This document shows, piece after piece, positions 4,432 to 5,874 of a stretch of 17,995 nucleotides of DNA. Within the stretch, counting starts at the first letter, position 1. Each line of letters starts with the position of its first letter. This DNA is from Escherichia coli (GTDB taxonomy: Bacteria; Pseudomonadota; Gammaproteobacteria; Enterobacterales; Enterobacteriaceae), in the NCBI RefSeq assembly GCF_003334335.1, contig NZ_QOWQ01000057.1. The stretch is one strand, 5' to 3'. Below the pieces are notes generated by a model. It was not told the DNA's origin and did not search any database. It worked only from the letters and a program-made list of their open reading frames with translations. The position numbers and the translations under genes are program-made.

Positions 4432-4467
4432 TTGCAAAATGGGGGTTATTTCAATCAAAACGTAACG

Positions 4468-5412
4468 TCACAACCAGCCGACGCTCTCTCGCCATTTATA
4501 ATTAGTAACTTTATCATTTTCGCTTATTTTTTTAGATATAGAGCGCGGCTCTCTTCCTAGATACTCAGATATTTCTATCGGGGACAAATCAAAATCGACA
4601 AGCATGACTCTAAGTTTTTCCATTTCCTTTAAAGTCCAAGGCTTGCCATAATTTTCATAAAGAGATACCTTATGCTCCCTGATAGTTCGCTTTCTCTGAG
4701 TTTCACTTTCCCTCTGAAAAATCTCGCTTTTAAATTGTGAACGGAACTCTTTACAGAAGTTGTTATCAGTTTTTTTGTTATATAGATTGCTAAAAATAAG
4801 CTGGGATGCCGGGTCTAAATCAGGTGTGTTAATAATGAAAACTTTGACCTTTTCCATATAGGGATATTCAATTTTACCCAATATGCTTAATTGCTTTATA
4901 TTAAAAAAACCTCTCAAATCAAAAGATTTAATGAGCTTTGATTGGATTACACTTTCAATCCTGCTTGCATTTGAATAACAGTACTTTGCCATTGGAAGGG
5001 CCCATACTACCAGTTGAGGAATATATTTTTCTAATGCAATGCTCTGCCAATCAGTATCAAAGGTTTGGCTTTTTGCTAGCATGTTTTTCGGCAAATCAGA
5101 ATACATTGTGGTAGATGCCCATATCTTATAATCATTCGCCAAGGCTTGATAGTATTTTGTGTGGTTATGAATTTTATAAGCTGACATGAAGCGATAAACG
5201 TCTTCGTCGTGACCAGCGTCGTAAATTGTTCGATTTCCTCTAAGATAACCGTCGTAATGTTCGGTTATCCTTCTACCTACATTACAACTTACCCCAACGT
5301 AAACCACACGACTGAAAAGTCCTTTATGGACAATAAGATAAACTCCGCTACAGCCAGATTTCCTGGCCTCTGATAGAGAACCTAAAAATCTCCATTCCAT
5401 AATTAAATCCAT
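4468..5412 (-). CDS. GIY-YIG nuclease-domain protein with C-terminal Myb/SANT-like helix-turn-helix, 314 aa, in an A+T-rich islet
   Basis: N-terminus ...SGCSGVYLIVHKGLFSRVVYVGVSCNVGRRITEHY: GVY (aa 23-25), YVG (aa 38-40) after the spacing typical of GIY...YIG, then Arg47/Arg48, Glu51, His52. C-terminus PWTLKEMEKLRVMLVDFDLSPIEISEYLGREPRSISKKI fits the W-T-x-x-E...L...I-x-x-x-L-G-R...S-I pattern of Myb/SANT or homing-endonuclease DNA-binding modules. Composition and codon usage (A/T-ending) differ sharply from both flanks. Confidence 0.7.
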   Translation of the reverse strand: MDLIMEWRFLGSLSEARKSGCSGVYLIVHKGLFSRVVYVGVSCNVGRRITEHYDGYLRGNRTIYDAGHDEDVYRFMSAYKIHNHTKYYQALANDYKIWASTTMYSDLPKNMLAKSQTFDTDWQSIALEKYIPQLVVWALPMAKYCYSNASRIESVIQSKLIKSFDLRGFFNIKQLSILGKIEYPYMEKVKVFIINTPDLDPASQLIFSNLYNKKTDNNFCKEFRSQFKSEIFQRESETQRKRTIREHKVSLYENYGKPWTLKEMEKLRVMLVDFDLSPIEISEYLGREPRSISKKISENDKVTNYKWRESVGWL

Positions 5413-5874
5413 AATTATTGCTACTGTTTTTGTTTATCATTATTTTCGTGAAACTTCAACAATTTTATCCAAAAGCTAAGGGCAAAGACTTATATAATTA
5501 TACTTGTCATCGTTAGCGATTATATAGAGTAGTGGCGCTGACCTGCTCCCTGGTGATTCACACAGAATGCTGTTAGTAATGTCCGTTCCTCGCTCAAAGC
5601 AGACCATTCGCTCAGTTAACGCATCAGTGTCGTGCTAAAAGTAGACGTGGTTAACAACAATGTGAGTTAATCAACGGAGAGCAGGTCAACTCTAACCTGT
5701 ATCAAAAAAACAAATGTGTCACAAAGATGCCGCATGCCTTAATTTGAGTATAATTGAGACGGAAGTAGACGGTTTATGGCTAAATATTGTTGATATATAG
5801 CTATTTGAAGAGTTGTAGCGCAAGTGTATAGCCCAAACTAATAACGCTACGCCCCTTACCTTTGACGCCTCTTA

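What the first reader, a model, noticed from the sequence alone, without database searches (positions are those of the whole stretch)
4440..5520. Orphan A+T-rich islet carrying a GIY-YIG nuclease with a Myb/SANT-like HTH, between the yeeP-like GTPase and the RM/DarTG operon
An ~1.1 kb segment differs sharply in base composition from both flanks and carries one 314-aa gene (4468-5412, minus). Its N-terminus has the full GIY-YIG signature (GVY aa 23-25, YVG aa 38-40, then R47/R48, E51, H52); its C-terminus looks like a Myb/SANT-type or homing-endonuclease-type DNA-binding helix pair. Nuclease plus separate DNA-binding module is the layout of free-standing GIY-YIG homing endonucleases (I-TevI/Seg-like), yet here it is single-gene cargo beside a restriction system and a toxin-antitoxin. 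It could be a stand-alone anti-phage nuclease or a domesticated selfish endonuclease; I cannot place it in a named defence family from memory.
Basis: partly seen in the sequence, partly recalled or inferred. Interest (0 to 1): 0.7.

Follow-up and report, generated by a model that had tools for sequence, protein, structure and literature searches.

The report
Single-gene GIY-YIG nuclease defence-island cassette
The A+T-rich islet is a self-contained 1.2 kb cassette encoding an uncharacterised DNA-cutting enzyme (GIY-YIG nuclease tethered to a Myb-like DNA-binding domain) that hops between bacterial anti-virus gene clusters, so it is probably a new stand-alone immunity nuclease, but nobody has tested it.

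The parts
4407..5604 (-). Mobile single-gene module (cassette): B hairpin, gene, own upstream region, A hairpin
   Evidence: The same block is >=98.7% identical in five other contexts, with breakpoints at window 4407 (4424 in the plasmid) and 5596-5618. GC is 37.1%.
4407..4430 (+). Hairpin/site B, GTCCGCTCTGTGCCAAGAGCGGAC (10-bp stem 4406-4415/4422-4431, 6-nt loop); left cassette boundary, 38 nt beyond the stop codon
   Evidence: Perfect inverted repeat. dG -10.8 kcal/mol, z -3.6. 2 matches in the window against 0.07 expected. B-type copies follow the gene in Serratia and Brenneria, with a compensatory arm change in Brenneria.
4468..5412 (-). ORF for the GIY-YIG/HTH protein (314 aa as annotated; stop codon 4468-4470; conserved start probably ATG at 5400-5398, giving 310 aa)
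   Evidence: dN/dS 0.07-0.17 against four other genera.
4768..5412 (-). Enlarged GIY-YIG nuclease module (aa 1 to about 215): b23-30 (GVY), b34-42 (YVG), helix 45-58 (R48, H52), an insertion of about 75 aa, b134-140, helix 146-164 (E153), N171, and the conserved LGKIE and P197/D200 segments
4648..4767 (-). Helical tether (aa about 216-255; helices 218-226 and 228-251, basic), the least constrained part
   Evidence: Secondary structure. dN/dS 0.21-0.30.
4471..4647 (-). C-terminal three-helix HTH, Myb/SANT-like (aa about 256-314; helices 261-273, 278-285, 289-302; invariant W259, E265, L267, R268, F274, R287, I296, W307)
5413..5580 (-). Module-borne upstream region with a candidate extended -10 promoter (TTGAAG about 5459-5454, TGATAAACA about 5439-5431), an SD-like AAAGATGGA-type sequence, and the inverted repeat TATATAAT/ATTATATA at 5491-5498/5519-5526
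   Evidence: Conserved across E. coli, Serratia, Salmonella and Brenneria. Inverted repeat. The simple sigma-70 scan found no minus-strand site here, so the promoter call is an inference from conservation.
5581..5604 (+). Hairpin/site A, GTCCGTTCCTCGCTCAAAGCAGAC (3 mismatches to the generic pattern; decayed here); right cassette boundary. The linker and next B site (about 5605-5648) are degenerate in this window
   Evidence: No stable fold for 5575-5650. E2348/69 shares the RM-side backbone from 5578 onward but carries different cargo.

Best explanation
The islet is a self-contained, promoter-bearing single-gene cassette encoding a DNA endonuclease. An enlarged but catalytically complete GIY-YIG module (Y25, Y38, R48, H52, E153, N171) is joined by a helical tether to a highly conserved Myb/SANT-like HTH. 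The most likely function is stand-alone immunity against incoming DNA (phage or other mobile elements). In this reading the HTH docks the enzyme on a DNA feature that is invariant in targets and absent or protected in the host, and the tethered GIY-YIG domain nicks or cuts nearby, as in the anchor-and-tether mode of I-TevI.

The gene is cargo, not the driver of its own mobility. In Enterobacterales it moves as a B-cargo-A unit at generic hairpin junctions, and in Vibrio it moves as an integron cassette.

Shown here: the domain architecture, conservation of the catalytic residues, purifying selection, the discrete module boundaries, the multiple contexts, and the absence of a conserved partner gene.

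Inferred: nuclease activity, DNA targeting by the HTH, the defence role, and how self is spared. No methyltransferase or immunity gene travels with the module. Discrimination must therefore come from target rarity, a phage-specific DNA modification or structure, or from silencing or activation of this A+T-rich gene.
For: Architecture and active site:
- Invariant Y25/Y38-V39-G40/R48/H52/E153/N171 across 34 homologues down to 38% identity.
- AF2 model with pLDDT 92 and pTM 0.82, with GIY-YIG topology.
- I-TevI reached by profile at E 9.7e-4.
- Purifying selection: dN/dS 0.07-0.17 overall and 0.05-0.09 in the HTH.

Stand-alone status:
- No neighbouring gene is conserved across contexts.
- In V. 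parahaemolyticus it is a one-gene integron cassette with attC core sites 12 nt before the ATG and directly after the stop codon.

Defence association. Recognised defence genes lie within 10 kb in 8 of about 13 distinct contexts:
- type I RM with DarTG;
- NACHT + HEPN;
- a restriction endonuclease;
- PD-T7-1, directly adjacent across a junction;
- BrxC-like/TerB/DEAD;
- AbiH, directly adjacent;
- BrxR with an MksE cluster;
- RES/HEPN/HNH;
- Thoeris and TIR.

The same B...A slot type carries PD-T7-1 (validated), a 1229-aa reverse transcriptase, DUF3800 in the P2 tail-fibre/sheath hotspot, and PDC-S31.

Other points: the gene is not found in phages. It is intact in about 288 of 5426 E. coli genomes, so it is tolerated without a partner.
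Against: - There are no functional data of any kind. No paper mentions these accessions or sequences.
- The family was not recovered in the Vassallo E. coli fosmid selection, although that screen was explicitly not saturating.
- Two contexts (Kosakonia, Serratia) are lone islets among housekeeping genes with no defence neighbours.
- Defence-island association was judged on about 13 hand-inspected contexts, not on a statistical background.
- Myb/SANT HTH domains are not known sensors in characterised defence nucleases.
- An extremely conserved HTH is unusual for a sensor in an arms race.
- The self/non-self mechanism is unknown.
Confidence: 0.55

Rival explanations
1. A free-standing, selfish GIY-YIG homing-type endonuclease (Seg or I-TevI-like), active or recently domesticated. 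It would cut a specific target allele and spread by recombination-dependent repair, with no benefit to the host.
For: - Same layout as I-TevI: N-terminal GIY-YIG, linker, C-terminal HTH.
- I-TevI is the best PDB sequence match, and there are weak hits to TIGR01453 'group I intron endonuclease'.
- The gene is A+T-rich (33-41% GC) whatever the host GC.
- It occurs as lone one-gene islets between housekeeping genes in Kosakonia and Serratia.
- The very conserved HTH fits a fixed DNA target.
Against: - No homologue in 50,697 phage genomes.
- TIGR01453 scores 15.1 bits against a cutoff of 56.
- Insertion sites are unrelated to each other, with five or more contexts in E. coli alone, so there is no cognate target allele.
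- The module edges are generic A/B hairpin junctions that also bracket unrelated cargo, and attC sites in Vibrio. Other machinery therefore moves it.
- Usually one copy per genome.
Confidence: 0.15
2. [quoted passage not shown] The HTH (structurally closest to the GcrA DNA-binding domain, which reads methylated DNA) would recognise a phage-type base modification and the GIY-YIG domain would cut. This would explain why no methyltransferase or immunity gene is needed.
For: - It is a stand-alone nuclease with no protective partner in any context.
- There is precedent in CMoRE/PD-T4-3, a GIY-YIG + C-terminal sensor protein that is a type IV enzyme (PMC12923530).
- GIY-YIG is listed among the nuclease domains of modification-dependent enzymes (PMC12191111).
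- An invariant sensor fits an invariant chemical mark.
Against: - No sequence relation to CMoRE or to GcrA.
- It lacks the GIYxY motif of CMoRE.
- The C-terminal fold is a generic three-helix HTH that matches dozens of ordinary sequence-specific regulators equally well.
- Known modification readers are SRA/PUA/winged-helix domains, not Myb-like ones.
Confidence: 0.2
3. A housekeeping function for the mobile elements that carry it rather than immunity. Examples: a nickase or resolvase acting on the hairpin junctions or on replication or transfer intermediates, or mainly a transcriptional regulator (an autorepressor like I-TevI) with a secondary nuclease role.
For: - It is always on mobile or variable DNA: islands, prophage, ICE/IME, plasmids, integron.
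- Hairpin B sits at a fixed distance (about 36-38 nt) after the stop codon in E. coli, Serratia and Brenneria.
- There are palindromic motifs in the conserved upstream region.
- GIY-YIG enzymes include structure-specific nucleases such as UvrC.
Against: - The A/B junctions occur in 695 genomes but the gene in only about 288, and junctions flank many cassettes that lack it.
- The carrier elements are of unrelated types with no common replication or transfer machinery.
- In Vibrio it is simply one integron cassette among many.
- The upstream palindrome is poorly conserved in E. coli itself.
Confidence: 0.1

Closest known systems
I-TevI / free-standing GIY-YIG homing endonucleases (Seg proteins)
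   Different: The nuclease domain is about twice as large, with an insertion of about 75 aa between helix 1 and strand 3. No zinc finger or NUMOD modules were detected by Pfam. It is absent from phage genomes and has no intron or cognate target allele. It is moved by foreign recombination sites. The TIGR01453 score is far below cutoff.
CMoRE (PD-T4-3), a single-protein GIY-YIG type IV restriction enzyme (PMC12923530)
   Same: A single-gene system in E. coli mobile DNA. N-terminal GIY-YIG plus a C-terminal DNA-reading domain. No partner methyltransferase.
   Different: No detectable sequence similarity to the PD-T4-3 models in PADLOC or to any PDB chain. No GIYxY-YIG motif. The C-terminal domain is a Myb-like HTH rather than the CMoRE modification-sensing domain. 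Activity is untested.
SNIPE (PD-lambda-1) and Uzume (UzuA), other single-gene GIY-YIG defence proteins
   Same: One-protein defence built on a GIY-YIG nuclease.
   Different: SNIPE is TM-DUF4041-(C-terminal GIY-YIG) and membrane-bound. Our protein has the nuclease at the N-terminus, and Pfam finds no DUF4041. UzuA is matched only over about 40 residues of the motif, and only by distant relatives (E 1e-4 to 0.02).
PADLOC candidate PDC-S14
   Same: Similar length (about 300 aa). GIY-YIG motif near the N-terminus. Best PADLOC hit.
   Different: The match is 42 residues of the motif only (E 0.0075, 13 bits; at best 1e-4 for relatives). There is no alignment over the rest of the protein.
Integron gene cassettes carrying defence genes (sedentary chromosomal integrons; bioRxiv 10.1101/2024.07.02.601686)
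   Same: The Vibrio homologue is a canonical one-gene attC-bounded cassette. The E. coli copy is likewise a compact unit exchanged among arrays of defence cargo.
   Different: The window copy has no attC sites and no IntI. Its boundaries are the A/B hairpins, it carries its own promoter, and it is oriented opposite to some neighbouring cargo. No GIY-YIG cassette is reported in that study.

Membership tests
GIY-YIG nuclease superfamily (Pfam PF01541) | GIY and YIG motifs on two adjacent strands with conserved Tyr residues | tested here: met
   G23-V24-Y25 on strand 23-30 and Y38-V39-G40 on strand 34-42. Y25, Y38, V39 and G40 are invariant in 34 homologues.
GIY-YIG nuclease superfamily (Pfam PF01541) | Conserved Arg (and His) in the first helix; metal-binding Glu in the helix after strand 3; downstream Asn | tested here: met
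   R48, H52, E153 and N171 are invariant. R48=R27 and H52=H31 of I-TevI in the profile alignment. The E153/N171 assignment rests on invariance and secondary-structure order, not on a residue-level superposition.
GIY-YIG nuclease superfamily (Pfam PF01541) | Statistically significant profile match and GIY-YIG fold | tested here: met
Free-standing / intron-encoded GIY-YIG homing endonucleases (I-TevI, Seg; TIGR01453) | Score above the curated family cutoff | tested here: not met
   TIGR01453 scores 15.1 bits against a cutoff of 56.05.
Free-standing / intron-encoded GIY-YIG homing endonucleases (I-TevI, Seg; TIGR01453) | Resides in phage genomes or introns and targets the cognate endonuclease-free allele | tested here: not met
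   No tblastn hit in 50,697 phage records at E<=0.01. Insertion contexts are mutually unrelated.
Free-standing / intron-encoded GIY-YIG homing endonucleases (I-TevI, Seg; TIGR01453) | Site-specific cleavage that promotes its own inheritance | not testable with these tools
   Needs cleavage mapping and genetic crosses.
CMoRE / PD-T4-3 | Sequence or profile similarity; GIYxY-YIG motif | tested here: not met
   No PD-T4-3 model was hit in PADLOC at E<=1. No PDB chain from CMoRE (9U7U, 9U75) was hit at E<=10. The motif here is GVYLIVH, without the second Tyr.
CMoRE / PD-T4-3 | Cleavage dependent on 5hmC or glucosyl-5hmC | not testable with these tools
   A biochemical property.
SNIPE / PD-lambda-1 | N-terminal transmembrane helix, DUF4041, C-terminal GIY-YIG | tested here: not met
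   No PD-lambda-1 or DUF4041 hit. The nuclease is N-terminal.
Uzume (UzuA) and PDC-S14 (PADLOC) | Full-length match to the family HMM | tested here: not met
   Only about 40-residue motif matches: PDC-S14 at E 0.0075 for the window protein, and UzuA only for distant relatives.
FS_GIY_YIG (DefenseFinder; PICI-encoded, Fillol-Salom 2022) | Match to the DefenseFinder HMM or the tested protein | not testable with these tools
   The name is recalled from memory and confirmed only as a label in two survey papers. The source paper and HMM are not held. None of the contexts inspected here was recognisable as a PICI.
Myb/SANT DNA-binding domain | Three-helix bundle with conserved aromatic core; significant Pfam match | tested here: inconclusive
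Integron gene cassette | attC site with inverse core RYYYAAC and core GTTRRRY bounding one promoterless ORF in an array | tested here: not met
   Met for the Vibrio homologue: GTTAGGC 12 nt before the ATG, GCCTAAC after the stop codon, and 14-16 repeat copies in L002. Not met for the window copy, which has A/B hairpins and its own upstream region instead.

The most novel reading that the evidence does not exclude
The islet's edges reveal an undescribed, integron-like cassette-exchange system for defence genes in Enterobacterales. Two heterospecific core-type sites bracket each cargo unit as B-cargo-A and join units as a 66-bp A-linker-B junction. Site A is GTCCGTTC-CTCGCTCA-AAGCGGAC and site B is GTCCGCTC-TGTGCCAA-GAGCGGAC; each has 8-bp inverted arms and an 8-bp spacer. 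This would allow recombinase-mediated swapping of whole defence cassettes between CP4-type islands, P2 and Qin-type prophages and plasmids. The co-travelling 200-aa tyrosine recombinase, or another recombinase, could mediate the exchange. The GIY-YIG/HTH gene would be one such cargo and a new stand-alone immunity nuclease.
Probability: 0.25. Interest if true: 0.8.

Novelty: new variant of a known kind. Interest (0 to 1): 0.55.

Why it matters
If the protein is an immunity nuclease, it adds a fourth, architecturally distinct single-protein GIY-YIG defence alongside CMoRE, SNIPE and Uzume. It would be the first to use a Myb-like HTH as its targeting module. It is present in about 5% of complete E. 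coli genomes and across Gammaproteobacteria, and its very compact size (310 aa) makes it an easy experimental target and a possible tool enzyme.

The mobility evidence is useful in its own right. The same 1.2 kb unit sits beside RM/DarTG, NACHT, PD-T7-1 and Thoeris, and inside a Vibrio integron. This shows how single defence genes are shuffled between hotspots of different element types. The A/B hairpin junctions offer a sequence handle for finding further uncharacterised defence cargo, since most cargo in such slots had no PADLOC match.

Tried and rejected
- **Named defence families.** PADLOC, NCBIfam and PHROGs scans of the protein and of distant relatives gave only motif-level or sub-threshold hits. 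CMoRE, SNIPE, Uzume and PDC-S14 are rejected as families.
- **PDB by sequence with the full-length profile.** The top hits were chance antibody matches. Foldseek against the PDB found nothing below E 1.
- **GcrA-like or Myb membership by sequence.** A C-terminal-only profile found no significant hit. Only fold-level similarity remains.
- **Phage origin.** No tblastn hit in the phage collection.
- **attC sites at the window copy.** None found. The hairpins do not carry RYYYAAC/GTTRRRY cores (by inspection).
- **Hairpin B as the gene's intrinsic terminator.** There is no U-tract, and the same site flanks cargo of the opposite orientation. Not excluded as a secondary role.
- **Rfam.** No RNA family inside the module.
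- **Autoregulatory operator.** The upstream palindrome is clear in Salmonella but decays in E. coli, so it stays a weak lead.
- **Context of the short, nuclease-only relatives.** The look-ups gave no usable contigs.
- **Literature.** No paper holds the protein accessions, the hairpin sequences, or a GIY-YIG + Myb defence protein. Rousset 2022 does not mention hairpins or palindromes in the P2/P4 hotspots. The Fillol-Salom PICI paper could not be read.
- **Active-site geometry.** Residue-level geometry could not be measured because model coordinates are not exposed to scripts.
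Full report
**1. Observation**

The compositional break is real. The module 4407-5604 is 37.1% GC and the ORF 36.4%. On the left, the YeeP-like GTPase is 57.8% and Ag43 56.9%. On the right, hsdM, darT, darG and hsdR are 51-53%, although hsdS is also low at 39.4%. The module is the lowest-GC 1.2 kb stretch of the 18 kb window. 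It is a tRNA-Ser-integrated CP4-44-type island carrying CbtA/CbeA, YeeS, YeeT, an antirestriction gene, Ag43 and the GTPase. Then comes this gene, a small hypothetical gene, an HTH-like gene, hsdM, hsdS, darT, darG, hsdR and an M48 peptidase.

**2. The protein**

A database search gave 72 clusters of homologues. Nearly all are 309-314 aa and full length. They come from Enterobacterales, Aeromonas, Vibrio, Photobacterium, Pseudoalteromonas, Thalassotalea and one Undibacterium.

In an alignment of 34 homologues down to 38% identity, the invariant residues include Y25, Y38-V39-G40, R48, H52, E153 and N171. In the C-terminus they include W259, E265, L267, R268, F274, R287, I296 and W307.

The AlphaFold2 model is confident (pLDDT 92, pTM 0.82). 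Its element order is strand 23-30, strand 34-42, helix 45-58, an insertion of about 75 residues, strand 134-140 and helix 146-164. A long helix (228-251) and a three-helix bundle (261-302) follow.

By sequence, the window protein alone is only a marginal Pfam GIY-YIG hit (E 0.017). At family level the evidence is better. All 34 members hit at E<=0.1 and 20 at E<=0.001. A broader profile of the nuclease module reaches I-TevI at E 9.7e-4 and aligns Y38=Y17, R48=R27 and H52=H31. The Myb assignment is fold-level only. Five of 34 members give weak Myb_DNA-bind_6 hits, and a C-terminal-only profile finds no significant PDB chain.

Most homologues start at the residue equivalent to M5. The conserved sequence AAAGATGGA, which contains the annotated first ATG, sits where a Shine-Dalgarno is expected, and the Vibrio copy has a clear GGAGGG there. 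The real product is therefore probably 310 aa, starting at window 5400.

**3. Size and relatives of the family**

An exhaustive profile search of 1.84 billion representative proteins found only 137 hits at E<=0.001. About seven clusters share the full architecture. About 60 clusters are 200-230-aa proteins matching only profile positions 1-208, so the enlarged nuclease module also exists on its own. One relative fuses that module to DUF5677, and another has a 128-aa N-terminal extension. AFDB50 agrees: full-length structural relatives reach Firmicutes at TM about 0.7, and all are uncharacterised.

Selection is strongly purifying. dN/dS is 0.07-0.17 between E. coli and four other genera. The HTH is the most constrained part (0.05-0.09) and the tether the least (0.21-0.30).

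**4. What it is not**

PADLOC gives only a 42-residue motif match to the candidate PDC-S14 (E 0.0075). It gives nothing for PD-T4-3, PD-lambda-1 or Uzume with the window protein. Distant relatives give the same motif-level matches to PDC-S14 and UzuA.

The literature identifies PD-T4-3 as CMoRE, which has a GIYxY-YIG motif, a C-terminal modification sensor and type IV activity against hmC and glucosyl-hmC. It identifies PD-lambda-1 as SNIPE, with the layout TM-DUF4041-GIY-YIG. Neither architecture nor motif fits this protein.

The NCBIfam group I intron endonuclease model scores 15 bits against a cutoff of 56. No homologue exists in 50,697 phage genomes. Only four plasmids carry it.

**5. The islet is a discrete mobile module**

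In complete E. coli genomes, about 288 of 5426 carry the gene, but only 58 carry it in this window's arrangement. The same block, at least 98.7% identical, has breakpoints at window 4407 and 5596-5618. It also occurs in these contexts:
- in the early region of a Qin-like prophage (dicB/ydfD/hokD/rem);
- beside a 1356-aa NACHT protein and a HEPN protein in a CP4-57-type island;
- beside a restriction endonuclease in another CP4-44-type island;
- on an IncFIA plasmid.

EPEC E2348/69 has the same RM-side backbone from window 5578 onward but carries two unrelated small genes in place of the module.

Outside E. coli the gene lies in these contexts:
- in a Brenneria ICE near BrxC-like, TerB and DEAD-helicase genes;
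- next to AbiH in Aeromonas;
- next to a BrxR-regulated cluster containing MksE in Thalassotalea;
- among RES, HEPN and HNH genes in Undibacterium;
- in a Salmonella integrative mobilisable element with Thoeris and TIR genes;
- as lone islets between housekeeping genes in Kosakonia and Serratia.

In Vibrio parahaemolyticus it is a textbook integron cassette. The locus has 14-16 copies of the attC-type repeat. The core site GTTAGGC lies 12 nt before the start codon, and the inverse core GCCTAAC lies directly after the stop codon. No neighbouring gene is conserved across these contexts, so the gene works alone.

**6. The boundaries**

The left edge is a perfect hairpin, site B at 4407-4430 (GTCCGCTCTGTGCCAAGAGCGGAC). 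It has a 10-bp stem, dG of -10.8 kcal/mol and a z-score of -3.6. The right edge is a related site A at 5581-5604, which is decayed in this window.

Where junctions are intact they read A, an 18-nt linker, then B, about 66 bp in total. Sites lie in one orientation, so each cargo unit is B-cargo-A. Both sites have 8-bp inverted arms around an 8-bp spacer, and the two spacers differ.

The junction occurs in 695 of 5426 E. coli genomes. Ten other Enterobacterales species, plus one Collinsella MAG that I did not examine, carry the exact B site without the GIY-YIG gene.

The junction also brackets other cargo:
- PD-T7-1, a validated defence system, directly next to the GIY-YIG cassette in the Qin-like prophage (E 7e-157);
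- a 1229-aa reverse transcriptase cluster and a dynamin-family cluster in CP4-44-type islands;
- a DUF3800 gene and a 461-aa unknown gene in the P2 tail-fibre/tail-sheath hotspot;
- a PDC-S31 candidate.

A 200-aa tyrosine recombinase travels in these regions. It is 93.5-99.5% identical in four contexts, is of FimB/FimE size with a XerC-like catalytic domain, and is present in 863 genomes. I could not test whether it acts on A/B sites.

I found no description of these sites in the held literature. Serratia and Brenneria keep a B-type hairpin about 36 nt after the stop codon, and the Brenneria copy has a compensatory arm change.

**7. Regulation (inference)**

The roughly 170 nt upstream of the gene belong to the module and are conserved in four genera. 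They contain a TTGTTGA(T/A)A box and, 17 nt downstream, a TGATAAA(T/C)A box. I read this as a weak -35 with an extended -10. The simple consensus scan did not call a minus-strand promoter here. A palindrome (AATCACTG-N4-CAGTGATT) is clear in Salmonella but decays in E. coli. The gene is A+T-rich in every host (33-41% GC). From general knowledge of xenogeneic silencing, this makes it a plausible H-NS target. That is not tested.

**8. Mechanism**

The best-supported reading is a stand-alone endonuclease that protects against incoming DNA. The conserved HTH would anchor the protein on DNA, and the tethered, catalytically complete GIY-YIG module would cut nearby. This is the mode established for I-TevI and I-BmoI (established knowledge of those enzymes).

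The evidence for a defence role is contextual. The gene sits next to, or shares slot types with, RM, DarTG, NACHT, AbiH, Thoeris and PD-T7-1. It is single-gene cargo in an integron and in hairpin-bounded cassettes.

How self is spared is unknown. No methyltransferase or immunity gene travels with the module. The options are a phage-specific modification or DNA structure, a rare target sequence, or tight expression control. The extreme conservation of the HTH argues for an invariant target.

The selfish homing-endonuclease reading is weakened by three points: the gene is absent from phages, its insertion sites are unrelated, and its edges are generic junction sites or attC sites used by other machinery. 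I put the defence-nuclease reading at about 0.55, the selfish reading at 0.15, and an element-maintenance or regulatory role at 0.1. Within the defence reading, a type IV modification-dependent mode is at about 0.2.

**9. Novelty and limits**

NCBI already labels many copies 'GIY-YIG nuclease family protein', so the domain itself is not news. What is not described, as far as the held libraries show, is this architecture as a family, its cassette behaviour, and the A/B junctions.

I could not test membership of DefenseFinder's FS_GIY_YIG, because neither the model nor the source paper is available. If it matches, the novelty of the gene drops to 'already known'.

All functional statements are inferences. 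The defence association rests on about 13 hand-inspected contexts and not on a background-corrected statistic.

Noticed in passing
window 4407-4430 and 5581-5604; complete junctions at L015 10175-10240, L019/L021 8175-8240, L020 6959-7024, L022/L023 6000-6065, L024 6001-6066: A roughly 66-bp double-hairpin junction separates cargo units in one orientation (B-cargo-A). It consists of site A GTCCGTTCCTCGCTCAAAGCGGAC, an 18-nt linker CTTCAGCTCAGTnAnnTT, and site B GTCCGCTCTGTGCCAAGAGCGGAC. It occurs in CP4-44/CP4-57-type islands, a Qin-like prophage, the P2 tail-fibre/sheath hotspot and a plasmid. It is present in 695 of 5426 E. coli genomes, and the exact B site occurs in ten other Enterobacterales species. 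Each site looks like a tyrosine-recombinase core site (8-bp arms, 8-bp spacer), and the two spacers differ. It is not found in the held literature.
   Followed up: partly
L015 12221-12823, L020 8238-8840 (pseudogene), L022 3339-3941, L023 7607-8209: A 200-aa tyrosine recombinase recurs at 93.5-99.5% identity near the A/B junctions in four different contexts, often paired with a divergent 366-aa hypothetical gene. It is annotated 'site-specific integrase', is of FimB/FimE size and has a XerC-like catalytic domain. It is present in 863 E. coli genomes, including Nissle 1917. It could be the junction recombinase or a local invertase; this was not resolved.
   Followed up: partly
L015 10554-11903 (Qin-like prophage of strain WCHEC025985): The 449-aa 'hypothetical protein' in the cassette directly adjacent to the GIY-YIG module is PD-T7-1 (PADLOC E 7e-157). 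It is itself bracketed by a B site and an A-like site.
   Followed up: partly
window 6195-6269 (-): Sub-threshold but low-E-value Rfam matches to isrK (42.3 bits, E 3e-7) and to the a1/b1 targets of C4 antisense RNA (40.9 bits, E 2e-8). They lie between the small hypothetical ORF (5875-6129) and the HTH-like gene (6411-6650), upstream of the RM operon.
   Followed up: no
window 6690-16025 (+): DarT (10475-11131) and DarG (11128-12195) are embedded inside a type I RM operon, between hsdS (9128-10462) and hsdR (12214-15309). An M48 metallopeptidase gene (15309-16025) follows and overlaps the hsdR stop. hsdS is markedly A+T-rich (39% GC) compared with the rest of the operon.
   Followed up: no
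L025 10001-10945 (Kosakonia cowanii) and L027 10001-10945 (Serratia sp.): The homologue occurs as a lone one-gene islet between housekeeping-type genes (a short-chain dehydrogenase and a PhoQ-like sensor kinase; a DUF8168 gene and ApbA), with no defence or mobility genes within 10 kb. The Serratia copy keeps a B-type hairpin after the stop codon.
   Followed up: partly
P0095 (515 aa), P0074 (451 aa): Rare relatives fuse the enlarged nuclease module to a C-terminal DUF5677 domain instead of the HTH, or add a 128-aa N-terminal extension of unknown nature to the full architecture.
   Followed up: partly
window 5398-5412: The RefSeq start codon (5412) is probably 12 nt too far upstream. The family-conserved start is the ATG at 5400, preceded by a conserved SD-like AAAGATGGA-type sequence.
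   Followed up: yes
L037 8824-8847 (Collinsella sp. MAG contig, 9.7 kb): An exact B-site hairpin on a contig assigned to an actinobacterial MAG. This is more likely mis-binned enterobacterial DNA than genuine spread.
   Followed up: no
H70 (NZ_CM128586.1 4580804-4583079), H117, H118: A few E. coli genomes carry the gene disrupted by IS903B or truncated, while about 278 copies are >=99% identical and intact.
   Followed up: no
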